From Minisyncoccota bacterium (GTDB lineage: Bacteria; Patescibacteriota; Minisyncoccia; Phycocordibacterales; UBA5272): 64,000 bases of DNA. Under the pieces are notes generated by a model that worked only from the letters and a program-made list of their open reading frames with translations, was not told the DNA's origin and made no database searches. How positions within the stretch are numbered: position 1 is the first letter of the stretch; each line of letters starts with the position of its first letter. The position numbers and the translations under genes are program-made. Positions 41,046-57,153 of the stretch are shown here, in pieces. Location: NCBI GenBank assembly GCA_041651055.1, contig JBAZJW010000002.1, positions 90,980-154,979 of the forward strand. Reading direction: 5' to 3'.

Positions 41046-41081
41046 CTACCCACATTCTACCACAGCTATAATATCCTGTCA
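41046..41081 (-). promoter_or_regulatory. promoter cassette copy (TTGACA-N17-TAGAAT)
   Basis: RC reads CTTGACAGGATATTATAGCTGTGGTAGAAT...AGGAGGT..ATG. Confidence 0.55.
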
Positions 41082-41098
41082 AGTATCAAAACGTATAG

Positions 41099-41515: not shown

Positions 41516-42919
41516 TCAAATCTGGAAGATGGTTTCCTTGATGTGCTCAGTGTTGTTGAGATCGGAAGCGTCAATCGACCACAGCTTGTCGGACAGGGAC
41601 TTGAGGTCGTCGCCGTCTGCGGGTACACCACCAATGACCACAGAAAAGAGCCTGGCACCCAACTTCTTCTTGGTATTAGAGAGTGCTTCCTTATCGGGGA
41701 TGTTGCACAAACCGTCTGTGATGAACACAATGTCGGCTTTGGACATGGAAACGTTCTCCGTAACAGAGGAGAATGCCTTTCCAAGGGCTGACGAAAAATC
41801 TGTGCCTCCGCCGAAAAACATTTCCATGCACTTGAGCAAATCCTCGGTGTTGAATGGAGAGGTGAACTCCTGCTCGTGTCTGACGCACTCCGAGAAGTGG
41901 ATGATGCGGAAAGCGCGCTTTTGCTTAGAGGCCACGAAAGCCATCGCAAGTCCTACTGCTTTTGACCAGATCTCGGGTGCCCCTACCATGGAACCACTGT
42001 TGTCGATGCACACGACGATGGGACCCTTCTTCTCGGTGATGTGCTCGTCGAGCCGGTACTGTACCAGCCCCTTCTCCAGGTACCTCTTGAAGAAATCGAG
42101 TTCGAGATCCCCAGCCACCAGTTTCATGGCCTCAGCGGGGATCAACCGGCCGATGTCATTGCCCATCTCGATGTCGGTGATTTCATCGGGTCCCGGCTGC
42201 TTCTTGTTGGCCTGGTGCTTCTCCGCTTCGTTCTTGAAGCGACCAGCCATTTCCATGATCTGCTTCAGCTTGGCGCTGTTGCGGATCATTTCCATGACGC
42301 GCAGCTTCTGCTGGTCGCCGGTTAAAGAAGCCGCCCCGGAAGTCGAATTGTCATATCCAAAGACGGAGTTTGCTTCGCTGGCATCGTCAAGGGCTTCCTT
42401 GGCCTTTCCGAGCCCACGGCGGATTGCCTGGCGCACCTGGTAGCCATCCAGGTTATTGATGGCCTCAGACCACGCTTTCTTTGAATTGGCCAACTCCTGC
42501 TCCAGCTTTTCCTTGGTAACTTGGTAGTTGGGCCGATCCTGCATGTCTTCCAGGCCGTTCAGATCCCTTTCCACGTCCTTGGGATTGCGATCTTCCATCT
42601 TGGGCAGGGTACTGAGGATCTGCTCGGACAAAACGGAGGTGCCAAGGCCAGACTGGAAGGAATCAAACACCGTGCCTTGGCTGCGAATATCCTTCCACTC
42701 CTTCATGCCGCGCATCTCGTTGAACACCTTGGATGCCCACTCAGGAGAAGGATTATCAAAGTCGGGGTTGGACTGGAATAGGCTACCAAACACACCGGCT
42801 TGGAAGTCCCTGAAGTCCGAGTAACCCTTCGAGACACCACTGTTTTCCACCGTCTTCAGGCCACCGTGCGCCTCGAAGAAGTTGTCAAAGGACATCTTTT
42901 CCCAGGAGGAAAGCTTCAT
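41516..42919 (-). CDS. von Willebrand factor A (VWA) domain protein, MoxR partner
   Basis: MIDAS motif VVCIDNSGSM ... GGGTDF; start ATG 42919 is 10 nt after the MoxR stop with a GAGGG RBS. Confidence 0.75.
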   Translation of the reverse strand: MKLSSWEKMSFDNFFEAHGGLKTVENSGVSKGYSDFRDFQAGVFGSLFQSNPDFDNPSPEWASKVFNEMRGMKEWKDIRSQGTVFDSFQSGLGTSVLSEQILSTLPKMEDRNPKDVERDLNGLEDMQDRPNYQVTKEKLEQELANSKKAWSEAINNLDGYQVRQAIRRGLGKAKEALDDASEANSVFGYDNSTSGAASLTGDQQKLRVMEMIRNSAKLKQIMEMAGRFKNEAEKHQANKKQPGPDEITDIEMGNDIGRLIPAEAMKLVAGDLELDFFKRYLEKGLVQYRLDEHITEKKGPIVVCIDNSGSMVGAPEIWSKAVGLAMAFVASKQKRAFRIIHFSECVRHEQEFTSPFNTEDLLKCMEMFFGGGTDFSSALGKAFSSVTENVSMSKADIVFITDGLCNIPDKEALSNTKKKLGARLFSVVIGGVPADGDDLKSLSDKLWSIDASDLNNTEHIKETIFQI

Positions 42920-42929
42920 GACAGCACCC

Positions 42930-45077
<2,148 letters not shown>

Positions 45078-45112
45078 GCGAACCTCCTAATTGAAAACTT
45101 GATCCTAAGACC

Positions 45113-45141
45113 ATTATACCACAGCTATAATACGCTGTCAA
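45113..45141 (-). promoter_or_regulatory. promoter cassette copy (TTGACA-N17-TATAAT) for MoxR operon
   Basis: -10 RC at 45113-45118, -35 RC at 45136-45141, AGGAGGTT RBS 45081-45088, ACCATAC direct repeats upstream. Confidence 0.7.
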
Positions 45142-46980: not shown

Positions 46981-47811
46981 TCACAGCTCCATCAACTTGG
47001 CCTTGACCTGGTTCTCCATGGCATTCAACTTCTCCAGCACGTTCTCACCAGAGAACTTCAATCTCTCGGCGTAGAACTCCACTTCCTTCTTGGTTTCACG
47101 GAAACGTTCGAGAGTGGCTGCCCAACCCTTGGGGGTGCTGAACTTGTTGTTGTTGATCTCCTCCTGGAAGTTATCCAAACGACGGTTCATGTCTTCCATG
47201 AGGCTGTTGTAAATCGCCTTCTTGGTGTCTTCGGTGTTGATCTGAGGCACCAACACCATGCTGCATCCCTCCAGGGACTTGAGCAGTGCCTCCACCTGCT
47301 TGAGTTCCCTGGTGAACTTCTCATCAGCGTAGTAGATACCGCCGCCTTCACGGACAGTCACAGGCGTCATCTTGTCGATGATGTCCTTGATGATCAAACG
47401 CATGTCGTAGGACGTGAGGTTTTCCTTGAAGGAGTTGTACTTGTCCTTGATGAGATCAAAGGCGCGGTGTGGATGATCACAGGTCAGCAACCCGGTCTTC
47501 TGATTGAAAGACATGGTAGCCGAGTGGTGGTACTGCAGGTCCTGTGCCTTGGGGTCAACCTTTTCATCCACCAACCCCACCAGGTGCTGGTCTTTGTCCT
47601 TGGCGATCATACGCACCAAGACATGGTGCTGTCCCTGTTGCTGTTTGACCTGACGCACTGCATTGAGGTAGGCTGTGCGGTCGCAGTCCTTGATGTCGTA
47701 CTTGATGCCCACCTTTTTACAGGAGGCGAGGAAGTCCACCTTCTTGACCAGGACTTCGCGGATGCTCCACCAGAAGAAGTACCCCATGATCACGAGTCCG
47801 TTGGCTGTCAT
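46981..47811 (-). CDS. hypothetical early protein (276 aa)
   Basis: AAGGAGA RBS; first gene after promoter copy at 47834-47862. Confidence 0.4.
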   Translation of the reverse strand: MTANGLVIMGYFFWWSIREVLVKKVDFLASCKKVGIKYDIKDCDRTAYLNAVRQVKQQQGQHHVLVRMIAKDKDQHLVGLVDEKVDPKAQDLQYHHSATMSFNQKTGLLTCDHPHRAFDLIKDKYNSFKENLTSYDMRLIIKDIIDKMTPVTVREGGGIYYADEKFTRELKQVEALLKSLEGCSMVLVPQINTEDTKKAIYNSLMEDMNRRLDNFQEEINNNKFSTPKGWAATLERFRETKKEVEFYAERLKFSGENVLEKLNAMENQVKAKLMEL

Positions 47812-47833
47812 GTCTAAATCTCCTTTCGATCAA

Positions 47834-47862
47834 ATTGTACCACATCTATAATAACGAGTCAA
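47834..47862 (-). promoter_or_regulatory. promoter cassette copy (TTGACT-N17-TACAAT)
   Basis: RC reads CTTGACTCGTTATTATAGATGTGGTACAAT. Confidence 0.5.
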
Positions 47863-47883
47863 GTATCTGTCGTTGTGTGCATA

Positions 47884-47910
47884 CGTCCCCAAGGGGATTC
47901 GAACCCCTGT
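47884..47910 (-). pseudogene. tRNA 3' fragment (T-arm plus 3' acceptor strand only)
   Basis: RC ACAGGGGTTCGAATCCCCTTGGGGACG; no matching 5' half within 80 nt. Confidence 0.3.
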
Positions 47911-47957
47911 ACCAAGCTTGAAGAGACAAACGCCATTTATGTTGAGAAAAATGATCA

Positions 47958-48527
47958 TTAAACGCACTTTTTGCCATTGCGGATGTGCTTCTTTACTGTT
48001 TGAAAACTTACACCAAACATTTTACTAACTCCTAAAATACTATTATCTTTTATTAATTTCATAAGTTCATTGTGAGTAGGCCAACACACCTTTTGATGGT
48101 CTAACTGGCAACATTTAATAGAACAATAACGGTGTCCGTTTCTTTTCACAGGAAAACTGCAACCACAGTGTTCACACACAGATGTTGTACCTCTCTTGGT
48201 GTTTTTCTTGCTGTTCTTTTTATTTCTAATCCACTTTGAGTACTCATTTGATTTATCTGAATTAAAATGAATCTCAGAGTGACAATTTGCACACAGTAAT
48301 TGGCATTTATCTAACTCTTCCTTCATTGTTTCTAGACTACGTTTTCTCATGTGATGCCAAGAAAATTTTTTATTTAATGGGTCTTTATGGTGAAACACAA
48401 GAGCACCTATACATTTATTGTACCCACATATTTCGCATTTGCCTCCTTTATACTCTACAGCCATCTCCTTCAAATACACATATCTACGTTTTATGTATTC
48501 AGAATTATATTTTTGATCATCATTCAT
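47958..48527 (-). CDS. HNH homing endonuclease
   Basis: CEICGYNKC...VFHHKDPLNKK...LLCANCHSEIH (HNH motif) plus C-terminal CxxC zinc ribbon. Confidence 0.8.
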   Translation of the reverse strand: MNDDQKYNSEYIKRRYVYLKEMAVEYKGGKCEICGYNKCIGALVFHHKDPLNKKFSWHHMRKRSLETMKEELDKCQLLCANCHSEIHFNSDKSNEYSKWIRNKKNSKKNTKRGTTSVCEHCGCSFPVKRNGHRYCSIKCCQLDHQKVCWPTHNELMKLIKDNSILGVSKMFGVSFQTVKKHIRNGKKCV

Positions 48528-48827
48528 GTTTGTTAGGTACCACTTTTCTCAGACAGGGCATCATCTCACTTTCCTACTTTCTTGGCGCGTCGCTTTCGGG
48601 CGCGCTTGATGGCCTGAATGACTACGTTGATGATGCTCACCCCCATAAATCCACCTTCCCTAGAACAACTCAGAATCTGTTCTTGAAAGTAAACATGCAA
48701 CTATGTAAATACCAGAAAAAATGTTGTTAAATGCTCCTCCTCCAGTATATTGTGCCTGACAACTATCCCATCTAATACAGTTGTGACAGTTGTAATGCTC
48801 ACCATTTTGTAAATAACGATTCAATAT

Positions 48828-49070
48828 CTACTCCTTCATGCTCAAGAAATTGTCATAGAATGACATACGACCACTTACACACTCCTGGAAATTGAAGTAG
48901 CACCCGCATGCAGGATCGTAGTGTTCGCAATCCTTGCAGTCCTTGCTTATTGCCCACTGCAAGAACGCCTGGACCATGGTGGCTGCTCCAATTTCTGCCA
49001 GCGTTTGCATGCGCCTGTCCTGATCGTGAGAGGAACTGTATGACGTGTGCAAGTCTTCCCAGGAAAACAT
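48828..49070 (-). CDS. small Cys-rich protein
   Basis: CKDCEHYDPACGCYFNFQEC. Confidence 0.35.
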   Translation of the reverse strand: MFSWEDLHTSYSSSHDQDRRMQTLAEIGAATMVQAFLQWAISKDCKDCEHYDPACGCYFNFQECVSGRMSFYDNFLSMKE

Positions 49071-49082
49071 TCCCTTCCCCCT

Positions 49083-49232
49083 TTACTGTTCGCTGCAAAA
49101 AACGTTCAGGACGATGAAAGCAAACGTGTCAAGCACGGCGCTGAAAAAGGACTTACAAAATCCGTGCTTCATATATTTGTGGTAAAGGTACTCACCACGA
49201 AAGTTGGCCAAAATTTTGTTGAAAAAACTCAT
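49083..49232 (-). CDS. small hypothetical protein (49 aa)
   Basis: ATGA overlap with the upstream 54-aa ORF. Confidence 0.3.
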   Translation of the reverse strand: MSFFNKILANFRGEYLYHKYMKHGFCKSFFSAVLDTFAFIVLNVFCSEQ

Positions 49233-49393
49233 GCCAAACCGTTCTCTTTCATGAACTTGACGGTCTTTTCCGCGTCCTGCATCACCTCCTGCACGGCACA
49301 CACCCCATGCACTCCGTCGTGTTTGTTGAGCAGCTCGGCCATGGCCTGGTTGAGTTCACTGATGAGAGAGGAAACTTTGTCGAGAACTGGCAT
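49229..49393 (-). CDS. 54-aa ORF carrying a duplicated MoxR N-terminus (first 20 aa identical)
   Basis: MPVLDKVSSLISELNQAMAE identical to MoxR residues 1-20; the DNA differs only at synonymous sites; same promoter/RBS cassette upstream. Confidence 0.45.
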   Translation of the reverse strand: MPVLDKVSSLISELNQAMAELLNKHDGVHGVCAVQEVMQDAEKTVKFMKENGLA

Positions 49394-49428
49394 GTGAACC
49401 TCCTAATTGAAAACTTGATCCTAAGACC

Positions 49429-49457
49429 ATTATACCACAGCTATAATACTCTGTCAA
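49429..49457 (-). promoter_or_regulatory. promoter cassette copy (TTGACA-N17-TATAAT)
   Basis: Near-identical to the copy at 45113-45141, including UTR and AGGAGGTT. Confidence 0.7.
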
Positions 49458-49496
49458 GTATTTCGAACAAACGATGACGTATGGTCATATATGGTA

Positions 49497-50715
49497 ATTA
49501 GAACAAGCTAAATGTACGATGGTTAATTCATCTTTATTTTTCAATGTTTTACTTTCTTTGTGCATAAGACTTTCAAATACCGTCTCTATCCAACACATGT
49601 GCAGGTCACTTTGCTAAATACTACATTAGAAATCTGTCGTCAAGTCTATAATAAAACATTGGGTATGAGAAAATATACTTACGAGACTGAGAAAAAGTCT
49701 TTATCTTTGTACGATACTCACAACCTATTAACTAAATGGAAAAAGGATAGTGTTCATTGGAACAGTGTTTATTCACAAGTACTAACTAATGTACAAGTCC
49801 GAGTCGATTTAGCCTATAAAGCTTTCTTTCGCAGAGTTAAAGCTAAGCAAACTCCTGGTTTTCCGCGTTTCAAGGGCAAGGGGCGTTATGATAGCTTTAC
49901 TTTTCCTCAAGCTAGTAATCAAGGTGCTAAAATCGTTGGAGGTGGTCTTAGACTCAGCAAGATCGGTATTATATCTACAGTCTTTCATCGTCCAGTCCAA
50001 GGCAAAATCAAGACGATCACTATACGCAAATCATCTACTAACAAGTGGTATGCCTATATCAATGTAGAAATAGATCCTGTACGTTTACCAGCAAATGACT
50101 TGGCAGTAGGTATAGATTTAGGTATAAAGACTTTTGCTGTCTTGTCCAATGGTGAGACTGTACCCAACCCAAGATTTTTCAAGAGATCAGAAAAGAAATT
50201 AGCTAAAGTACAACGCAAGTATTCAAAGCTTGAAAAAGGATCAAGTAAGAGACGTGCGTATCGTAAAGTCGTAGCACGAGTCTATGAAAAGATTTCAAAT
50301 CAACGCAAAGATTTTGCTCATAAACTTAGCAGAAGTCTCGTTCATCAGTTTGGTACAGTGGTGTTCGAGGATCTCAACATACGAGGCATGATACAAGATG
50401 GTCACTTAGCAAAAAGTATCCATGACGTAGCTTGGCATCAGCTAGTACAATACACTATCTACAAAGCGGAAGAGGCTGGTAGGAGTGTAATACTAGTAGA
50501 TCCAAGAAACACGTCGAAAAAGTGCAGCAGATGTGGTAGCATAAAAGAGGATCTAACGCTTGATGACAGGACTTACATTTGTACGAGGTGTGGCTTGGTC
50601 TTAGATCGTGACTTCAACGCATCCATAAATATCTTGGCGCTGGGGCTGCAGCGCCGGGGGCGCTGTGCCCCGCGTAGACGTGTAGACCTAAGCACGTAAC
50701 AGCCACGAGCACACG
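49497..50715 (+). mobile_element. IS200/IS605-family tnpB-only element (approximate ends)
   Basis: Bounded on the left by the end of the promoter cassette and on the right by GC-rich hairpins at the tnpB 3' end (GGCGCTG-GGGCTG-CAGCGCC; GGGGC-GCTGT-GCCCC), typical of the right-end/omegaRNA scaffold. Confidence 0.45.
49560..50699 (+). CDS. tnpB: TnpB (IS605 OrfB) RNA-guided endonuclease
   Basis: FKYRLYPT...; RuvC-I GIDLGIKTFA; RuvC-II FEDLNIRGM; CSRCG...CTRCG zinc finger; RuvC-III DRDFNASINIL. Confidence 0.85.
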   Translation: MHKTFKYRLYPTHVQVTLLNTTLEICRQVYNKTLGMRKYTYETEKKSLSLYDTHNLLTKWKKDSVHWNSVYSQVLTNVQVRVDLAYKAFFRRVKAKQTPGFPRFKGKGRYDSFTFPQASNQGAKIVGGGLRLSKIGIISTVFHRPVQGKIKTITIRKSSTNKWYAYINVEIDPVRLPANDLAVGIDLGIKTFAVLSNGETVPNPRFFKRSEKKLAKVQRKYSKLEKGSSKRRAYRKVVARVYEKISNQRKDFAHKLSRSLVHQFGTVVFEDLNIRGMIQDGHLAKSIHDVAWHQLVQYTIYKAEEAGRSVILVDPRNTSKKCSRCGSIKEDLTLDDRTYICTRCGLVLDRDFNASINILALGLQRRGRCAPRRRVDLST

Positions 50716-50933
50716 ATCTTGAACTTTCCATTCACACACTTGGCCCTGATCTTGATTGTGTCTTTGTAGATCTCAACCAGCTTATTGATTAGCTCCGTGG
50801 CTTGTGCTTCGGTGTCAAAGCTACCAGGCAGGATGCAGATTCTGTCAGTTTCTGATGCTGGTGCAGAAGCCTGCACTTCGATTTCGATGTATTTACCTGT
50901 AGCTGGGTCGAAGGCTTTGATGAACCTGTTCAC
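50688..50933 (-). CDS. hypothetical early protein; 3' end abuts/overlaps the IS right end
   Basis: GTG start 7 nt after the -10 of the promoter copy (near-leaderless). Confidence 0.3.
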   Translation of the reverse strand: MNRFIKAFDPATGKYIEIEVQASAPASETDRICILPGSFDTEAQATELINKLVEIYKDTIKIRAKCVNGKFKIVCSWLLRA

Positions 50934-50939
50934 AAGTCC

Positions 50940-50968
50940 ATTATACCACAGCTATAATACGCTGTCAA
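50940..50968 (-). promoter_or_regulatory. promoter cassette copy (TTGACA-N17-TATAAT) with 18-bp palindromic operator-like site
   Basis: -10 RC at 50940-50945, -35 RC at 50963-50968; perfect palindrome GTATGGTCATGACCATAC at 50990-51007. Confidence 0.65.
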
Positions 50969-51017
50969 GTATTTCAAACAAACGACGACGTATGGTCATG
51001 ACCATACGTCTGGTAGA

Positions 51018-53369
51018 TTATACTGGTTCTAGTACATCTATCTTTTTGAAATCTGGTGGCAGGCACCCAAGTCTGTACATGATTGGTCGCAGTCTGTTTC
51101 CGATTTCCTTATGCAGTTTCTCAATGTCTTTCAGTAACACCCTATACTGTTCTAGCTCCTCTTCTGAGCTGTTTCCAATCCATTTACGTACTTGGTACCA
51201 TCCGGCATCATCCCTTGTAAGTTGCAATCTATACGGTGCTGTGTTTCGGTATCCTATTGTCTCTGTTACCAGTCTTGTGGCCGAATCGATTAGCAGCCTC
51301 ACATCACTACTAAAAAGGTGTTTATGGCTTTCAACCCACTTCGACACAAATGACTGATTGGTGCCAGTATTCACCCAAAAGAATTCGTTTTTGATGTCGT
51401 AGGAGTTACCATTGTATTGCACACCTCCAAGTGACGAAGACTGATTGGAATTATGAAACAGTGACCAGATCACCGCGTCTACTGCAAACTGTCTATACTC
51501 AGGGTGTGTGGTGTCTGGGGTGTTATACTGGTCTTTGTTATTTAGCCACCTTCCCTTCGTCAGTCTTCTGATAGTAAACACTGTCATAGACTGCTCAAAG
51601 TTTTCTGGAGTAATAGACCATCCATTACTATTTGCATATGGTCCAGACAGTATTTCAGTAAAGTCCCTGTGCTGTACTTCGTTAGCATTAGCCAAAAGAT
51701 ACCCAATGGCATCTTCAGACAATCTATTAAGTCTACCTTTTTCCACCACGTTCAGTGCACTTTTCATTGGTGGTCTAACTACCGTGTTCTTAGGTCTATT
51801 AATCCACTTATTCAACGGATCCTTAGCAGGACCAAAACCCTTAGTACCTGTCTTTACCAATGCCCCGTTTTTGTCCCTTTCTAACACATCCAACTCAACT
51901 ATATCAATGTTGATAGTGTTTGAATTTTTTCCTTTTACCCACACAGTAAACAATACTGGCCAGTTGTTGGCAATATCGCTGAACTCTGTTGTCTGGAAAC
52001 CAGAGCCTTTTACAAACTTCCAGTTACTGAACCAAAATTTTCTGAATGACTCATAGTTTTGCCCAACCAGGAAAGATGCTGGTGTGAAGATGCCCAATAC
52101 TGTTCCCTCAGGCATGAGTTCGGTGAGCCTAAACATAAATTGTGGGTATAGATTATTGCAAGTGATCTTTTGATCCTGCATTCTTTCCTGTGTTTTTGTT
52201 CCAGTTACCCCTTTGATGGTGTGTCCGCGTCCGCTGGTATCACCAGCCCACGGCGGATTAATCAACACCGCCCAATTGTGATCATTAGTTAATAGTTCAT
52301 GGATGCCTTTTGGAATATCATCATTCAAAAAGTCTAACTGGAAAATCCTTGCCTTGACCCCGTGTTGAATCATGTTTTCTACATCATATGACATTAGCGT
52401 AGATGCAAAAATTTTGCCTGGTGGGGTTCTGCAGTTCTTTACTAAATTACCTGTTCCAGCACAGCAATCCCAGAAATATATACTATCATAATCCAGGGCT
52501 GCTTTCTGTAAGTATGAGTGAGCCATCAAACACATATCAGGGGGCGTATTTACTTCTCCTGTGTTTCTGCGATCAGAAAGTTCGATTAGTGTATCCTTAT
52601 ATGGCATTATGTTGGAAAGATCTTCTGTGGTGATTCTCTTGTAAACACTCCAGAAGTCATTGTACTCTTTGATGTCTTCAATTACTCCTTCGATTGACAT
52701 CGTTTCGCCATTCCAGGAGATTCTTCCATCCTTGCGGAGTTCATACTTGTTTTGTAGATCAAGAAAAAATGCGGATACCAGAATTTGACTGATTAGATCC
52801 TTGCTTCCGAGCACCGTTTTCTTGATCCTGCTGTTCCATTGTCTGTATACATCGCACACGTTCTCTGCATTTACCGTCCTGGTAATTGCGGAATTATCCT
52901 CCTGAAAATACGCTTTCATGAAACAAGATGCTTCGTACTCATCTGTCATACTGTAGATGTGTGGAGTGCTGATCAGTTCTTCTACTGCATCAATGATATC
53001 TTGACTTGGGTTGCTTGGTACGCTCCAATCCTTTGAGTCATCCTGGATTAGTTGTTCAAATGGCTTTGTTGAGACAATGAATGCTTCATTTTTGTCCGCA
53101 ATTGACACCTTCTTTGGTACACTGAGTGTGCAGTCCTTGTAAATAGATCTTACATAGTGCAATACTTGTGCTGTGCACCTAGACCACTGTTTCTTCATGT
53201 TGTAGTCGAACTTGAATTCAAATATCACACCACGTACATCATCCACCCCATCGCAATTGTGTACTCTATGCAACATATCAACATTAAGCCATTGGACATA
53301 GCAGTCAGTTACTTCTGATTCAGTCTTGGTATTGAGTAATGATTTCACGAACTTTATGGTTGATCCCAT
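51018..53369 (-). CDS. MmeI-family-like gamma-class N6-adenine DNA methyltransferase (Type IIL RM / BREX PglX-like), 783 aa
   Basis: Motif X GEVNTPPD, motif I FWDCCAGTGNLV, motif IV LINPPW; N-terminal VDDVRGVIFEFK resembles the MmeI PD-ExK module; about 350-aa C-terminal target-recognition region. Confidence 0.65.
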   Translation of the reverse strand: MGSTIKFVKSLLNTKTESEVTDCYVQWLNVDMLHRVHNCDGVDDVRGVIFEFKFDYNMKKQWSRCTAQVLHYVRSIYKDCTLSVPKKVSIADKNEAFIVSTKPFEQLIQDDSKDWSVPSNPSQDIIDAVEELISTPHIYSMTDEYEASCFMKAYFQEDNSAITRTVNAENVCDVYRQWNSRIKKTVLGSKDLISQILVSAFFLDLQNKYELRKDGRISWNGETMSIEGVIEDIKEYNDFWSVYKRITTEDLSNIMPYKDTLIELSDRRNTGEVNTPPDMCLMAHSYLQKAALDYDSIYFWDCCAGTGNLVKNCRTPPGKIFASTLMSYDVENMIQHGVKARIFQLDFLNDDIPKGIHELLTNDHNWAVLINPPWAGDTSGRGHTIKGVTGTKTQERMQDQKITCNNLYPQFMFRLTELMPEGTVLGIFTPASFLVGQNYESFRKFWFSNWKFVKGSGFQTTEFSDIANNWPVLFTVWVKGKNSNTINIDIVELDVLERDKNGALVKTGTKGFGPAKDPLNKWINRPKNTVVRPPMKSALNVVEKGRLNRLSEDAIGYLLANANEVQHRDFTEILSGPYANSNGWSITPENFEQSMTVFTIRRLTKGRWLNNKDQYNTPDTTHPEYRQFAVDAVIWSLFHNSNQSSSLGGVQYNGNSYDIKNEFFWVNTGTNQSFVSKWVESHKHLFSSDVRLLIDSATRLVTETIGYRNTAPYRLQLTRDDAGWYQVRKWIGNSSEEELEQYRVLLKDIEKLHKEIGNRLRPIMYRLGCLPPDFKKIDVLEPV

Positions 53370-53401
53370 CTTTAACCTCTTATACAGGTAATCACAAACG
53401 T

Positions 53402-53668
53402 TTATTGAACCTTCAATCTCTGTCTAATGTACTTGTTTCTCAGAAGAAAATTTTTCCTGTGTGCCTCTTTCAATTCAAGATCGTATTTTAACCTCTTTTG
53501 AGGGTTTGTAAGAATTGAATATGCTTTATTCAGCAAAGCCATCTTCTTGACATCACCTGTTTCTTTGTTGTCGGGGTGATAATGCTTGGCAAGAGCAAAA
53601 TAAGATTGTTTGATGTCTTCAATCCTACAATCCTCAGTGACGCAAAGGATTATGTAATAGTTGATCAC
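53402..53668 (-). CDS. DnaJ (J-domain) protein
   Basis: YFALAKHYHPDNKETGDVKKMALLNKAYSILTNPQKRLKYD has the HPD motif and J-domain helix pattern. Confidence 0.75.
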   Translation of the reverse strand: MINYYIILCVTEDCRIEDIKQSYFALAKHYHPDNKETGDVKKMALLNKAYSILTNPQKRLKYDLELKEAHRKNFLLRNKYIRQRLKVQ

Positions 53669-53674
53669 ACCTTA

Positions 53675-53704
53675 ATTTTACTACGACTGTAATAATTTTG
53701 TCAA
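53675..53704 (-). promoter_or_regulatory. promoter cassette copy (TTGACA-N18-TAAAAT)
   Basis: RC reads TTGACAAAATTATTACAGTCGTAGTAAAAT; upstream ACCATA(T/C) repeats conserved. Confidence 0.5.
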
Positions 53705-54078
53705 GTATTTTCTGTGTATGGTCATATATGGTAAATGTGAAAGGAAGGAACACCCCAACCTCGTTAATTATTATCTACATGCTTTTCGGATAGCCTGAAG
53801 TGTTTGGTCCAGCTTTTATGGGCTGATCGGTGGCATTGTGCTCGATGATATTAAGAGTGAGTATTATTGGAATCTTCCGTAGTGTTGGGGACACCAATTT
53901 CCATAACAGTAAACTCTTCGTACCCTTCAGATTGATTTAATAGATGAGCAACTTCAAGTGCCTCACCTCGCGAATTAAATTTTTTAGCCTTGGTGGGGTT
54001 GTTCGTCAAGCAGTTTCGCCACGGCTCATTTGGATCCCACCTGTTGTTACTATACGTCTAATTACTTGTCCTGTTGAT

Positions 54079-54618
54079 TTAGTCTTCACGATCGGGCTCT
54101 GTATCTGTTTCAGGCACTTCAGATTCTAAATTTTTCACTGCTTCTGCAAAATTCTCAAGATCCTTCATGTACAGTCCATGTCGTTCAATCACGGAGCAGA
54201 ATTCTTGCACATCGTGTTCTATGATAGTGTATTTTGTGTCACCATCTTCAGACTCATCATCTGTTTGAACTAACATATGCGACAGCTCATGGTCGATTAC
54301 TGCCAATTTTTGAGCATCTGTTAGTGTCTGCCACACGGGATACGACACAATCAACAAGAAGTCAAAACCTTCAACGTCCACGTCACTCATACCGTTGTTG
54401 TACTTAGCGAGTGCGTTTTCTTTAGGTGAGCACTTCCCGGCAGTAGCTATTACAATCTTCCCGCCTTTCTTTATTTCTTTATTCTTGAATAGATAAGCGA
54501 TTCTGGCATTTACTAAGTGGGTGTGAAACTTTGGAATCAGTCTTTTTGCTATTTCTGCTACAGTATCAGCACGATCAAATTGCAGCGGAACATTTTTCAC
54601 TTGCTTATTATCAGGCAT
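54079..54618 (-). CDS. HExxH zinc metallopeptidase-like protein (ImmA/IrrE- or SprT-like)
   Basis: VIDHELSHMLV; GGAGG RBS; first gene of the leftward block. Confidence 0.45.
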   Translation of the reverse strand: MPDNKQVKNVPLQFDRADTVAEIAKRLIPKFHTHLVNARIAYLFKNKEIKKGGKIVIATAGKCSPKENALAKYNNGMSDVDVEGFDFLLIVSYPVWQTLTDAQKLAVIDHELSHMLVQTDDESEDGDTKYTIIEHDVQEFCSVIERHGLYMKDLENFAEAVKNLESEVPETDTEPDRED

Positions 54619-54639
54619 GCAGAACCTCCAGTTTTGCAG

Positions 54640-54668
54640 AAGTTACCGTGTTTTCATTTGTTGGTCAA
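54640..54668 (-). promoter_or_regulatory. candidate promoter TTGACC-N17-TAACTT
   Basis: RC reads CATTGACCAACAAATGAAAACACGGTAACTT then CTGGAGG ATG. Confidence 0.3.
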
Positions 54669-54689
54669 TGTTCATAAAATATACTTCAT

Positions 54690-54850
54690 TTACTGATCGG
54701 TAAAACGGCCACCAGTGACACTGGTGAGAGGTGACCTCTTACAGGTACAGGTTGCCTAGGTCACCAGGTAACCCGCATCTGGTGCAGGTAGAGGTCGCCA
54801 GGTCACCTATGTGAGGTTGCCTAGGTGCCTAGGTACGGTCGCCAGGCGAC
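54690..54850. repeat. iteron-like short repeats and palindromes in divergent intergenic region
   Basis: CCTAGGT x3, CCAGGT x3, CAGGTA x3, GGTCACC/GGTGACC, GGTCGCCAGGCGACC, CACCAGTGACACTGGTG. Confidence 0.5.
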
Positions 54851-54978
54851 CTAAAACTTTTTTAAAAACAAAGATCGAAGAAAGATCCGGAAAAAATGAA
54901 GGAAAAAGGGGTTTGGGGGAGAGGGGAACAACGATGCATGACGCATAAACCCAAGACTAAACTGTATACTGTGTGGCG

Positions 54979-55022
54979 GCATTCGCCGCCACGTGGTGAC
55001 TGCGAAGCGCAGTCACCACCCC
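54979..55022. other. two adjacent perfect GC-rich hairpins
   Basis: GGCGGC-ATTC-GCCGCC and GTGGTGACTGCG-AA-GCGCAGTCACCAC (12-bp stem). Confidence 0.5.
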
Positions 55023-55089
55023 CACATCTATAGAAATACTTTACCCTGAAAGGAAAGGAAGTACGGCACTCGAAACATGGAGGAATAAC

Positions 55090-56070
55090 TTGCCTAATAA
55101 AGAAGAAAAACAACACATAGTAATTTATACACAGGGTGGATCGGGAGATATAATTGCTTCTACTCCTATGTTGCGTTGCATACATAGGGATTACCCAAAT
55201 CAAGAGTTGGTTGTGGTAACTACATATCCTGTTATCCTAAAAGATAATCCTAATATCAGCAAGGTATTTCCATTCAATGAGGGAATGAATGTTTATTCAG
55301 AATATAAAGATACCGCTGTTATGTTCAAGAAGAGATTTGCTTATGATTATTTTAGAGACGAACACAGAGCAAAAAGCAAGAACATACTTGATTTTATTTG
55401 CAATGTGTATGATACTAAGTGGGATGGTGATCCTCCTGAGGTGTTTTTAACAAAACATGAGCGTGAGTTTGGTCAATACTTTATGAGTCAATTCAAGAAA
55501 CCTGTAATACTGATACATGCGTTTGGTGCTGTCCCCTCTGAGGGTCAATCTAGAAAAATACACGCTCACAAAGATATGCGGATGGATTTGATCTCTGAAT
55601 TGGTTAGAAAATACAGTAAGCATTTTGAGTTCGTGCAAATTGGATTAGCTGGTGAACAGCTTGTTGAGGGTGCGTTTGATGCTCTTGGTATGCAGATGCG
55701 TGAGACTTTTGCGATCATTGACCTGTGTAAAACGTTCGTGTTCATAGAAAGTTTGTTTGCACATTATTCTGCGTGCATTAACAAGACTGGTGTAGTGTTG
55801 TTCAATAATACTGATCCAAGATTCTTTGGACATCCACACAACATTAATATCAATGCACCGCAAAGCTTGTGTGATGAGTGGCCTTGCAATCGACCGGTTG
55901 GTGCTTTGTTGGATCTGGAGCCTGGATACTTAAACCCCAAAACCCGTGAACGCAATTTGTGGACATGTAAGAGAGATATAGTATGCAATCAGATACCGTA
56001 TGCTACTCTTGAGTCTGCGTTTCTGCGCGCTATAGAAAAGAACACCGAAAAAGACGAAAAGAGTGCATAG
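55090..56070 (+). CDS. GT9-like glycosyltransferase (heptosyltransferase-like)
   Basis: TTG start after GGAGG; IVIYTQGGSGDIIASTPMLRCIHRDYPNQELVVVT resembles the GT9 N-terminus. Confidence 0.5.
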   Translation: MPNKEEKQHIVIYTQGGSGDIIASTPMLRCIHRDYPNQELVVVTTYPVILKDNPNISKVFPFNEGMNVYSEYKDTAVMFKKRFAYDYFRDEHRAKSKNILDFICNVYDTKWDGDPPEVFLTKHEREFGQYFMSQFKKPVILIHAFGAVPSEGQSRKIHAHKDMRMDLISELVRKYSKHFEFVQIGLAGEQLVEGAFDALGMQMRETFAIIDLCKTFVFIESLFAHYSACINKTGVVLFNNTDPRFFGHPHNININAPQSLCDEWPCNRPVGALLDLEPGYLNPKTRERNLWTCKRDIVCNQIPYATLESAFLRAIEKNTEKDEKSA

Positions 56071-57153
56071 ATGGAAAATCGCCCATATCAATTCCTGACT
56101 GAAGACAAGAATGAAGCCAAGACAAAGATCATAGCCTACAAGGCTGATAGTGGTGCGTGTTGGTTTTATAGGTTGCATAGTCCGTTGAGTGCTCTTACTA
56201 GAAACAACAAGTCATTTCTGATTTCTGTATATCCGTATATGCATGAATCTCACATGCTAAAGAAAAACACCGATTTGGCTATATTTCAACGTCAATATTC
56301 TGCACAGGTGTTGCAATATGCCATGCAGATGAAGAAAGATGGCATAAAAATAGTTTATGAAACTGACGATGACCTGTTTCATATACCTGATTGGAATCCA
56401 GCACATCACACCTACGCAAAAAGACAAACTCAAGACGTGATCAGAAAGTTTTTGGAAATAGCAGACGCTGTTTTTACCACCACACAGCCGCTAGCTGAGG
56501 AACTTTTGCAGTATAATGATAATGTGTACATACTTCCAAATTCAATAGATTTTAGACTGATTACCGAGAGTCCGCACAATTCAATCAAGAAAGTGGCGGT
56601 GTGGCAAGGATCCGCTACTCATAAAAATGATTTAAAATTGATTACTCCAGCCATAAAGAGGCTGTGTTCTGAAGATAAGTACATGGTGAAACTGATGTAT
56701 GCTAAAATAGAGGGAGCTTATTCTGTTCCGCCTGTTGAACTGCAGGCATTTTACCAGATGATGAGCCAATTGGACGGTACTGTTGGTTTTGCACCAATAA
56801 TAGCAAACAAATTTAACGTGTGTAAATCTAATCTAAAGTTTCTTGAATATGCTGCACAAAAGATAATTACCGTAGCATCTGATGTACACCCATATTCAAC
56901 TTCTATAGTTGATGGTGAAACCGGATTTATAGTAAAGGATAATAAGGAATGGTACGACAAGGCAGTGTGTGTTCTGGAGAACGAGGAACTTATTGAAAAA
57001 GTTACCTCTGCCGCATATGAGTACGTGAAGGATAATTTTGATATAGATGATACATATAAGTATTGGGAGACAGCAATAACAGAAGTTCTGGAAGGAAAAG
57101 ACGCAGATAACCAGGAGAATGAAGATGACAGGTCTGTCGCTAGTATTGATTAA
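56071..57153 (+). CDS. GT1/GT4-like glycosyltransferase
   Basis: DAVFTTTQPLAEELL...VYILPNSIDF pattern. Confidence 0.4.
   Translation: MENRPYQFLTEDKNEAKTKIIAYKADSGACWFYRLHSPLSALTRNNKSFLISVYPYMHESHMLKKNTDLAIFQRQYSAQVLQYAMQMKKDGIKIVYETDDDLFHIPDWNPAHHTYAKRQTQDVIRKFLEIADAVFTTTQPLAEELLQYNDNVYILPNSIDFRLITESPHNSIKKVAVWQGSATHKNDLKLITPAIKRLCSEDKYMVKLMYAKIEGAYSVPPVELQAFYQMMSQLDGTVGFAPIIANKFNVCKSNLKFLEYAAQKIITVASDVHPYSTSIVDGETGFIVKDNKEWYDKAVCVLENEELIEKVTSAAYEYVKDNFDIDDTYKYWETAITEVLEGKDADNQENEDDRSVASID

What the first reader, a model, noticed from the sequence alone, without database searches (positions are those of the whole stretch)
51018..53369. 783-aa MmeI-family-like enzyme (Type IIL RM / BREX PglX-like) co-transcribed with a J-domain protein
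The central region has gamma-class N6-adenine methyltransferase motifs in the order X (GEVNTPPD), I (FWDCCAGTGNLV), IV (NPPW). The N-terminal region shows VDDVRGVIFEFK followed by a KVSIADKNEAF-type segment resembling the MmeI-family PD-ExK nuclease module, and there is a long C-terminal specificity region. This is either a single-chain restriction-modification enzyme carried by the phage (exclusion of competitors or host DNA attack) or a nuclease-dead, protective or decoy PglX-like methyltransferase. It shares a promoter with a DnaJ-domain gene.
Basis: partly seen in the sequence, partly recalled or inferred. Interest (0 to 1): 0.55.

Follow-up and report, generated by a model that had tools for sequence, protein, structure and literature searches.

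The report
Phage-borne single-chain restriction-methylase, unannotated family
This gene most likely encodes one protein that both cuts and methylates DNA at a specific sequence, an already known kind of enzyme, but it belongs to a large family that no current annotation library recognises.

Summary
It has the four-part layout of MmeI/DrdV-type (Type IIL/IIG) restriction-modification enzymes. These parts are an N-terminal PD-ExK nuclease (D40-X10-E51-X-K53), a connector, a gamma-class N6-adenine DNA methyltransferase (motifs X, I, NPPW), and a C-terminal specificity region. The nuclease residues are not degenerate: ExK is present in all 44 aligned relatives and in 51 of 52 independent viral homologs. 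Near-identical family members swap a cassette (residues ~376-600) while keeping about 100% identity on both sides, which is the signature of a target-recognition module. Best structural matches are DrdV, BpuSI, BsaXI and MmeI, not Dam-type orphan methylases. It is not a BREX PglX: there are no BREX neighbours, and homologs are solitary genes in bacteria, plasmids and phages. By sequence it fails every curated model (Pfam, NCBIfam, PADLOC, PHROGs), yet the family has at least 1,295 clusters at 50% identity, and every homolog that carries a name is called hypothetical (one is named 'CagY like'). The J-domain gene is probably co-transcribed, but the pairing appears in none of 80 related viral loci. 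Verdict: an ordinary mechanism in a new, unannotated family; activity is untested.

The parts
51018..53369 (-). Complete 783-aa ORF (stop codon 51018-51020): single-chain nuclease-methyltransferase-specificity protein
   Evidence: ORF list. AF2 model pLDDT 85.3. Foldseek best hits DrdV, BpuSI, BsaXI and MmeI.
53040..53369 (-). N-terminal PD-ExK nuclease domain, residues 1-110. Candidate catalytic residues: E17, D40 (53250-53252), E51 (53217-53219), K53 (53211-53213); also conserved Q68 and D92.
   Evidence: Conservation. Predicted alpha-beta-beta-beta-alpha-beta-beta-alpha topology, with D40 at the start of one strand and E51/K53 at the end of the next, as described for MmeI (PMC2731913). The domain-only model hits DrdV at E=1e-3, prob 1.0.
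52635..53039 (-). Connector region, residues 111-245 (helices plus a small beta unit)
   Evidence: Secondary structure of the models. It occupies the same position as the helical connector of DrdV. The assignment is by position only.
51930..52634 (-). Gamma-class N6-adenine DNA methyltransferase domain, residues 246-480: motif X 52536-52559 (GEVNTPPD), motif I 52440-52475 (FWDCCAGTGNLV), motif IV 52248-52259 (NPPW)
   Evidence: Sub-threshold hits to Pfam Eco57I and PADLOC MTase_II. Foldseek hits M.TaqI, M.BseCI and CamA with rmsd 4.5-6 A over ~250-300 columns. Motifs are invariant in the family.
51570..52244 (-). Specificity cassette, residues ~376-600: the post-motif-IV half of the MTase plus a beta-rich hypervariable domain (481-600; putative TRD)
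   Evidence: Pairs P0019/P0046 and P0026/P0027 are ~100% identical in residues 1-375 and from ~600/660 to the end, but only ~25-35% identical within 376-600, with indels. This is also the lowest-conservation segment of the family.
51021..51569 (-). Conserved C-terminal, mostly helical domain, residues 601-783 (motif W608-x-N610-x-x-D613...P618; C-terminal Y765-x-x-G768-F/C-L770)
   Evidence: Conservation. Residues 491-783 are encoded as a separate gene in related phages (L003, L030, L065, L066).
53402..53668 (-). 88-aa stand-alone J-domain protein (HPD at residues 31-33), 32 nt upstream of the ORF and probably in the same transcript
   Evidence: Pfam DnaJ E=6e-17. No terminator-like site between the genes. 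The pairing is not conserved at other loci.
53675..53704 (-). Promoter-like site TTGACA-18-TAAAAT (11/12) upstream of the J-domain gene
   Evidence: Consensus scan. Tentative: the -10 hexamer ends 6 nt before the GTG start, which would imply a leaderless or near-leaderless transcript.
50987..51010 (-). Terminator-like perfect 10-bp hairpin (GACGTATGGT-CATG-ACCATACGTC) followed by a T-rich tail, starting 8 nt after the stop codon
   Evidence: Consensus scan and sequence.

Best explanation
The ORF encodes a self-contained, bifunctional restriction-modification enzyme of the Type IIG/IIL kind, carried as an accessory gene by a large phage-like element. Proposed mechanism, by analogy with MmeI and DrdV: the beta-rich variable domain, together with the post-motif-IV part of the methyltransferase, reads a short specific DNA sequence. 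The gamma-class methyltransferase flips an adenine in that site and methylates N6 using SAM, which marks the element's own DNA as self. [quoted passage not shown] Shown here by computation: the domain order, conservation of the catalytic motifs, the structural class, cassette swapping, gene autonomy and family size. Inferred: catalytic activity, cutting away from the site, oligomer-dependent cleavage, and the biological role. The most likely role is exclusion of competing phages or plasmids, or attack on unmodified host DNA. A selfish addiction role is also possible. The J-domain protein is most likely an unrelated co-chaperone gene that happens to share the transcript.
For: Nuclease: ExK is present in 44/44 aligned relatives and the upstream D in 43/44. 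In 52 independent viral homologs, E51, K53 and Q68 are each in 51/52, D92 in 50/52, and the D...ExK pattern in 50/52. The D40-X10-E51-X-K53 spacing and strand placement match MmeI D70-X9-E80-X-K82 (PMC2731913). The N-terminal model alone retrieves only DrdV at high probability. Methyltransferase: motifs X, I and IV are invariant, and there are structural matches to M.TaqI, M.BseCI and CamA. Whole chain: DrdV 1.6e-11, BpuSI 2.4e-10, BsaXI 5e-10, MmeI 1e-8. A phage protein annotated as an N-6 DNA methylase matches with TM 0.58/0.61. Specificity: there are sharp mosaic breakpoints around residues 376-600. Autonomy: the gene is solitary in Helicobacter and in two other bacterial contigs. It is the main cargo of ~10-kb plasmids. 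It has no conserved neighbour across 80 viral loci. Modularity typical of RM genes: there are split forms, and nuclease-less forms with only the MTase and C-terminal module.
Against: No activity data exist for any member. No curated sequence model passes its threshold: Pfam Eco57I scores 23.4 bits against a cut-off of 25.3, and only the query of 41 members hits it; PglX scores 16.7 against 500. The PADLOC hits are weak generic MTase/REase models, the best at E=7.6e-6. PHROGs gives nothing. Whole-chain TM-scores to solved RM enzymes are only 0.24-0.31, and the N-domain match to DrdV is borderline (E=1e-3, TM 0.33). I could not see which DrdV residues were aligned. The C-terminal region was never searched as a separate structure. 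Motif IV is NPPW here, whereas the 52 viral homologs have Y (48) or F (4) at that position; W is still aromatic and, from my own knowledge, falls within the accepted [DNS]PP[YFW] motif. Phage identity of the window is probable but not proven, because no capsid, portal or terminase gene was identified in it.
Confidence: 0.7

Rival explanations
1. The protein works mainly as a protective (anti-restriction) DNA adenine methyltransferase for the phage genome. The N-terminal domain would be catalytically silent or would serve only as a DNA-binding or regulatory module.
For: Nuclease-less relatives with only the MTase and C-terminal module exist in viral contigs (L024, L047, L058, L060, L064, L068), so methylation alone can be useful. 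Phage-encoded orphan methylases are common in jumbo phages (PMC7824862). The best BFVD match is annotated only as a methylase.
Against: E17, D40, E51, K53, Q68 and D92 are all intact in this protein and are under strong conservation across the family. A vestigial domain would not keep them. Cassette swapping with a 100% conserved nuclease is typical of restriction enzymes.
Confidence: 0.15
2. It is a selfish addiction or mobile cargo gene (an RM enzyme acting as a post-segregational killer) that landed in a variable region of the element and gives the phage no particular benefit.
For: Transposase genes lie just downstream of three family members: TnpB at 49560-50699 in this window, an IS1595 transposase in L001, and a Y1 transposase in L006. 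Distribution is patchy across bacteria, small plasmids and phages. The gene is the main cargo on ~10-kb plasmids.
Against: This is a statement about biological role, not mechanism, and it is compatible with the best explanation. The gene has its own clean terminator and sits in an ordered minus-strand transcription block.
Confidence: 0.1
3. It is a PglX/BrxX-like methyltransferase that needs partner proteins, as in BREX or another multi-gene defence system, and has no nuclease activity of its own.
For: There is a weak NCBIfam PglX hit (E=0.0012) and a structural hit to E. coli BrxX (9ewz, E=5e-8).
Against: The PglX score is 16.7 bits against a cut-off of 500. No BREX genes, or any other conserved partner, were found in the contexts inspected or in the 80-locus neighbour clustering. 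The protein is far smaller than E. coli BrxX (783 aa against a 1,205-residue chain). It has a conserved PD-ExK motif.
Confidence: 0.03
4. It is an RNA or protein methyltransferase, not a DNA enzyme.
For: NPPY-type motifs also occur in some RNA and protein methyltransferases (my own knowledge). Low-ranked BFVD hits include putative RNA methylases.
Against: All the top structural matches are DNA enzymes bound to DNA. Fusion to a PD-ExK nuclease and a swappable specificity cassette makes sense only for DNA.
Confidence: 0.02

Closest known systems
MmeI family / DrdV (Type IIL single-chain restriction-modification enzymes)
   Same: The domain order is the same: N-terminal PD-ExK nuclease, connector, gamma-class m6A methyltransferase, C-terminal TRD. 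The D-X10-E-X-K spacing is close to MmeI's D-X9-E-X-K, with the same strand placement. DrdV is the best structural hit for both the whole chain and the isolated N-domain. Both are solitary genes with no separate methylase.
   Different: There is no detectable sequence-family membership. The protein is smaller: 783 aa against 1,029 for DrdV and about 919 for MmeI (from memory). The swapped cassette begins right after motif IV and includes half of the MTase domain. Natural split forms encode the C-terminal module as a separate gene. Cleavage distance, single-strand methylation and the multi-site requirement are unknown.
BpuSI / Eco57I-type Type IIG enzymes
   Same: They are single-chain nuclease-MTase-TRD enzymes. 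BpuSI is the only PDB sequence hit (E=0.14, residues 236-450) and is a top structural hit (2.4e-10). Pfam Eco57I is the only Pfam family touched.
   Different: Eco57I scores below the gathering threshold (23.4 against 25.3 bits), and no other family member reaches even E=0.01.
BsaXI / BcgI-type Type IIB enzymes (RM subunit plus separate S subunit)
   Same: The BsaXI RM subunit is a top structural hit (5e-10). The split variants of this family, with nuclease-MTase (residues 1-485) and a separate C-terminal protein (491-783), resemble an RM + S arrangement.
   Different: In this window the protein is fused. The C-terminal module holds one variable domain, not the two TRDs of an HsdS-like subunit (my own knowledge of Type IIB enzymes). 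Nothing suggests cutting on both sides of the site.
BREX PglX/BrxX
   Same: Both have a gamma-class adenine methyltransferase with a C-terminal specificity region. There is a structural hit to 9ewz.
   Different: There are no BREX partner genes. This protein has a conserved nuclease motif and is far smaller. The NCBIfam score is 16.7 against a cut-off of 500.
REase-fold domains fused to DNA-modification enzymes in jumbo phages (Mom-REase fusions; Iyer et al. 2021, PMC7824862)
   Same: These are phage-borne fusions of a DNA-modifying enzyme to a restriction-endonuclease-fold domain. They are predicted to protect phage DNA while attacking host or superinfecting DNA. The same paper notes J-domain and MoxR-vWA genes as sporadic features of its group 2.2 jumbo phages, and both occur in this window.
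   Different: The modification chemistry differs: methylation here, momylation there. The comparison is conceptual, not homology.

Membership tests
Type IIG/IIL restriction-modification enzymes (functional class) | Nuclease and methyltransferase in one polypeptide | tested here: met
   PD-ExK motif and fold at residues 1-110, and gamma-class MTase at 246-480, in one ORF.
Type IIG/IIL restriction-modification enzymes (functional class) | Intact PD-(D/E)xK catalytic residues | tested here: met
   D40, E51 and K53 are present. ExK is in 44/44 aligned relatives and 51/52 independent viral homologs; the D...ExK pattern is in 50/52.
Type IIG/IIL restriction-modification enzymes (functional class) | A target-recognition domain that sets sequence specificity | tested here: met
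   Mosaic pairs are ~100% identical outside residues ~376-600 and ~25-35% identical inside. This is indirect evidence; the fold of this region was not compared on its own.
Type IIG/IIL restriction-modification enzymes (functional class) | No need for a separate cognate methylase or partner genes | tested here: met
   The gene is solitary in bacterial, plasmid and viral contexts, with no recurrent neighbour.
Type IIG/IIL restriction-modification enzymes (functional class) | Site-specific cleavage and SAM-dependent methylation demonstrated | not testable with these tools
   Needs biochemistry or methylome sequencing.
MmeI sequence family (Type IIL) | Significant sequence similarity over the whole length, or a match to the Pfam MmeI domain models (I recall that such models exist; this is from memory) | tested here: not met
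   No MmeI-related Pfam family at E<=0.1 for the query or at E<=0.01 for 41 members. No MmeI or DrdV sequence hit in the PDB with a single sequence or a profile.
MmeI sequence family (Type IIL) | [quoted passage not shown] | tested here: met
   Model: H17-28, a bridge at residue 33, E41-43 (D40 just before), E48-52 (E51, K53), H58-79, E87-91, E95-100, H102-109.
MmeI sequence family (Type IIL) | Methylation of only one strand; cleavage about 20/18 nt from the site | not testable with these tools
   Biochemical property.
Eco57I-like methylase (Pfam PF07669) | Score at or above the Pfam gathering threshold | tested here: not met
   23.4 bits against a cut-off of 25.3, covering residues 368-452 only. 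One of 41 members hits at all.
BREX-1 PglX (NCBIfam NF033452) | Model score above the cut-off | tested here: not met
   16.7 bits against a cut-off of 500.
BREX-1 PglX (NCBIfam NF033452) | Encoded in a BREX gene cluster (brxA/B/C, pglZ, brxL) | tested here: not met
   No such genes appear among the ORFs scanned around the gene (46981-57153) or at homolog loci.
Gamma-class N6-adenine DNA methyltransferases | Motif order X - I - IV with (D/N/S)PP(Y/F/W), and a Rossmann-type fold resembling M.TaqI | tested here: met
   GEVNTPPD at 271-278, FWDCCAGTGNLV at 299-310, NPPW at 371-374. M.TaqI, M.BseCI and CamA match at E 1e-8 to 7e-10 with rmsd 4.5-6 A.

The most novel reading that the evidence does not exclude
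This is the first recognised representative of a large family of single-chain restriction-modification enzymes (at least 1,295 clusters at 50% identity) with no significant sequence similarity to any characterised family. The family has its own cassette logic: the swap begins right after NPPY and can be split off as a separate subunit. In this phage the enzyme would be used offensively, against host DNA or rival phages, and the co-transcribed J-domain protein would recruit host Hsp70 to fold or assemble the multimeric cleavage complex.
Probability: 0.12. Interest if true: 0.6.

Novelty: new member of a known kind. Interest (0 to 1): 0.38.

Why it matters
If members are active, this family is an untapped pool of restriction and methylation specificities. 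It has natural, cleanly bounded specificity cassettes (residues ~376-600), which could be useful for engineering, as was done for MmeI. The family is invisible to Pfam, NCBIfam and PHROGs and touches only weak generic models in PADLOC. Defence-system and RM censuses of bacteria, plasmids and phages that rely on such libraries would therefore miss it, and m6A motifs in methylomes of Bacteroidales, Lactobacillaceae, Helicobacter and other groups may be unassigned because of it. For phage biology, it adds a case of a large phage-like element carrying a complete restriction-modification function. The mechanism itself is not new.

Tried and rejected
- **Sequence-profile routes.** Pfam, NCBIfam, PADLOC and PHROGs on the query gave only sub-threshold MTase hits. 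A Pfam scan of all 41 family members gave nothing consistent.
- **PDB by sequence.** A single-sequence search found BpuSI at E=0.14. A 41-sequence profile search gave only spurious Rab5 and DnaJ hits.
- **GenBank phages.** Megablast with 5 kb around the gene found no match. tblastn with the protein found no match.
- **J-domain as a functional partner.** Rejected: no J-domain ORF lies within +-4 kb in 80 viral loci, and none is adjacent to the close homologs P0007 or P0002. A DnaJ gene three genes away from the Helicobacter homolog looks coincidental.
- **Conserved-neighbour search.** Clustering of flanking ORFs found no partner. The largest cluster covers 11 of 80 loci, all from one phage lineage.
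- **Apparent loss of ExK in alignment A2.** This turned out to be a 2-column register shift, not real loss.
- **Extra-long family members.** They carry insertions (LAGLIDADG, suggesting an intein; DUF559; LPD3), not partner-function domains.
- **Phage hallmark genes.** Twenty large ORFs of the window gave almost no PHROG hits.
- **Literature.** Searches for phage-borne Type IIG enzymes returned nothing specific.
Full report
**1. Observation**

The window has an intact 783-aa ORF on the minus strand at 51018..53369.
- VDDVRGVIFEFK at residues 42-53
- KVSIADKNEAF at 87-97
- GEVNTPPD at 271-278
- FWDCCAGTGNLV at 299-310
- NPPW at 371-374

An 88-aa J-domain gene (53402..53668, minus strand; Pfam DnaJ E=6e-17; HPD at residues 31-33) ends 32 nt upstream of the ORF's start codon.

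**2. Transcription unit**

A sigma-70-like site (TTGACA-18-TAAAAT, 11/12) lies at 53704..53675. No terminator-like site separates the J-domain gene from the ORF. A perfect 10-bp hairpin with a T-rich tail (51010..50987) starts 8 nt after the stop codon. It is followed by a separate 12/12 promoter for the next gene. A two-gene operon is therefore plausible. One caveat: the -10 hexamer ends only 6 nt before the GTG start of the J-domain gene. That would imply a leaderless transcript, so the promoter assignment is tentative.

**3. Sequence libraries do not recognise the protein**

- Pfam gives only a sub-threshold Eco57I methylase hit (23.4 bits against a cut-off of 25.3; residues 368-452).
- NCBIfam gives PglX at 16.7 bits against a cut-off of 500.
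- PADLOC gives weak generic Type II hits, the best being an MTase model at E=7.6e-6.
- PHROGs gives nothing.
- The best PDB sequence hit is BpuSI at E=0.14.
- A 41-sequence profile finds no real PDB relative.
- Of 41 family members, only the query touches the Eco57I model.

**4. The protein belongs to a large unannotated family**

A word-indexed search found 490 relatives. Most are about 800 aa. None of the 120 listed carries a precomputed Pfam domain except one with an extra DUF559. All that have a name are called hypothetical, apart from one 'CagY like' label. They come from Bacteroidales, Treponema, Helicobacter and many metagenomes. The identical protein is on record as a hypothetical protein on a 183,779-bp contig binned as Candidatus Paceibacterota.

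An exhaustive profile search of 1.84 billion cluster representatives found 1,295 proteins at E<=1e-30 and 3,243 at E<=1e-3. At least 83 loci occur in IMG/VR viral contigs of up to 412 kb. Twenty-four plasmids carry a homolog, always annotated as hypothetical, unannotated, or with no listed feature. No GenBank phage record has one.

**5. Nuclease domain**

In the family alignment, E51 and K53 are invariant, and E17, D40 and D92 are nearly so; Q68 is invariant. A second alignment seemed to lose ExK, but inspection showed a 2-column register shift. All 44 sequences have E-x-K, and 43 of 44 have the upstream D.

I also checked 52 distinct full-length viral homologs that were not used to build the alignment. 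E51, K53 and Q68 are each present in 51/52, D92 in 50/52, and a D...ExK pattern in 50/52.

The AF2 models (full chain pLDDT 85.3; N-terminal 245 residues alone pLDDT 87.8) place D40 just before one strand and E51/K53 at the end of the next. The overall topology is alpha-beta-beta-beta-alpha-beta-beta-alpha. This is the arrangement described for MmeI, D70-X9-E80-X-K82 (PMC2731913).

Searched alone against the PDB, the N-terminal model finds only DrdV at high probability (E=1e-3, prob 1.00; two more DrdV chains at 0.02 and 0.04). Non-significant hits to viral cap-snatching endonucleases follow; from my own knowledge these are also PD-(D/E)xK enzymes. The match is borderline, and I could not see which DrdV residues were aligned.

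**6. Methyltransferase domain**

Motifs X, I and IV are invariant across the family. The full model matches gamma-class N6-adenine DNA methyltransferases bound to DNA (M.BseCI, CamA, M.TaqI) with rmsd 4.5-6 A over about 250-300 columns. The window protein has NPPW, whereas the 52 viral relatives have Y (48) or F (4) at that position. W is still aromatic and, from my own knowledge, falls within the accepted motif.

**7. Whole-chain class**

The best PDB structural hits are single-chain or RM-subunit restriction-modification enzymes:
- DrdV, 1.6e-11
- BpuSI, 2.4e-10
- BsaXI, 5e-10
- MmeI, 1e-8
- BrxX, 5e-8

TM-scores are low (0.24-0.31), as expected when domain orientations differ, so the MTase core probably drives most of the score. 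In BFVD, one phage protein annotated as an N-6 DNA methylase matches over the whole chain (E=9e-31, TM 0.58/0.61). DrdV is described as an endonuclease, a helical connector, an MTase and a TRD. It cleaves only after several DNA-bound protomers assemble (bioRxiv 10.1101/2021.01.06.425610). The same four-part order is seen here.

**8. Specificity region**

Residues 481-570 are the least conserved part of the family. More tellingly, closely related pairs are mosaics. P0019/P0046 and P0026/P0027 are about 100% identical from residue 1 to ~375, immediately after NPPY. They fall to about 25-35% identity, with indels, across ~376-600 (to ~660 in one pair), and then return to about 100%. This cassette exchange is the classic signature of target-recognition modules in RM enzymes. 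It also implies diversifying selection on DNA specificity.

The module is physically separable. In at least four loci (L003, L030, L065, L066) residues ~491-783 are a separate gene; in L003 it is 41% identical to the query, E=3e-81. Versions that lack the nuclease domain also exist.

**9. Autonomy**

Homologs are solitary genes among housekeeping genes in Helicobacter and in two other bacterial contigs. On ~10-kb Acinetobacter and Fluviibacter plasmids the homolog is the main cargo next to replication and partition genes. Across 80 viral loci no flanking gene family recurs beyond one lineage (11 of 80). No BREX genes appear in any of these contexts, so the PglX reading is rejected.

No J-domain ORF lies within 4 kb in any of the 80 viral loci. 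The J-domain pairing is therefore local to this element. J-domain and MoxR-vWA genes are noted as sporadic features of "group 2.2" jumbo phages (PMC7824862), and this window has both.

**10. Nature of the window**

Phage-like features:
- a phage metallopeptidase and a DUF6744 protein
- proteins with tail-fibre-like domains
- a Holliday-junction resolvase hit in PHROGs
- a MoxR protein resembling that of jumbo Bacillus phage 0305phi8-36
- a 1017-aa ORF weakly matching an uncultured 197-kb virus

However, most large ORFs have no PHROG hit, and no capsid, portal or terminase gene was identified in the window. "Large phage or phage-like element" is probable, not proven.

**11. Conclusion**

This is most likely an active, self-contained Type IIG/IIL-like restriction-modification enzyme from a previously unannotated family (confidence about 0.7). 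The mechanism is inferred by analogy with MmeI and DrdV; no member has been tested. The kind of enzyme is well known, so the finding is only moderately interesting. Its value lies in exposing a large blind spot in annotation and defence-system libraries, and a natural set of swappable specificity cassettes.

Noticed in passing
window 41052-41082, 45111-45141, 49427-49457, 50938-50968 (minus strand): A 31-nt extended promoter element, TTGACAGNGTATTATAGCTGTGGTATAATGG, occurs four times (three exact, one with 3 mismatches; 0 expected by chance). It heads successive minus-strand transcription units. The spacer is conserved as well as the hexamers, which suggests a regulator-binding site or a phage-specific promoter class. 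The J-domain/RM operon does not use it.
   Followed up: partly
window 49412-49488 and 50923-50999: A 77-nt direct repeat (90% identical) contains half of a terminator hairpin plus the promoter element above. The two copies bracket a TnpB/OrfB_IS605 gene (49560-50699, + strand, antisense to the surrounding block) and an 81-aa ORF (50688-50933, -).
   Followed up: partly
window 42930-45077 (minus strand), 715-aa MoxR AAA+ ATPase: The MoxR ORF appears to carry an intein. Residues ~100-452 match sequences inside terminase large-subunit genes of mycobacteriophages and Gordonia phages (35-37% identity), and there is a weak Hom_end Pfam hit. The flanking parts match MoxR of Bacillus phage 0305phi8-36. 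A VWA-domain gene (41516-43117) follows it.
   Followed up: partly
family members P0175, P0201, P0234, P0266 (1,103-1,178 aa): Several homologs have an insertion of ~300-350 aa at the same profile position (~332, inside the MTase core). P0201 has a LAGLIDADG domain there, which suggests inteins inserted in the methyltransferase of this family.
   Followed up: partly
window 49560-50699; L001:10493-11410; L006:10165-10620: Three different transposase types (TnpB, IS1595 DDE, IS200-like Y1) lie just downstream of three different family members. This suggests the gene sits in variable accessory regions.
   Followed up: no
window 55090-57153 (+ strand); L001:15171-17888: Glycosyltransferase genes lie close to the RM-like gene both in this window and in the 345-kb contig that carries homolog P0007. 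Whether they modify DNA or a surface structure was not examined.
   Followed up: no
window 1-40431 (+ strand ORFs): Nearly all large plus-strand ORFs (up to 1017 aa) have no PHROG hit, and their only Pfam matches are lectin, beta-helix or carbohydrate-binding domains. The element is very distant from cultured phages. The source contig (183.8 kb) is binned as Candidatus Paceibacterota, which may be a binning artefact or a hint about the host.
   Followed up: partly
window 53668-53680 (minus strand): The -10 hexamer of the candidate promoter ends 6 nt before the GTG start of the J-domain gene. This implies either a leaderless transcript that starts with GTG or a different, unrecognised promoter further upstream.
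   Followed up: no
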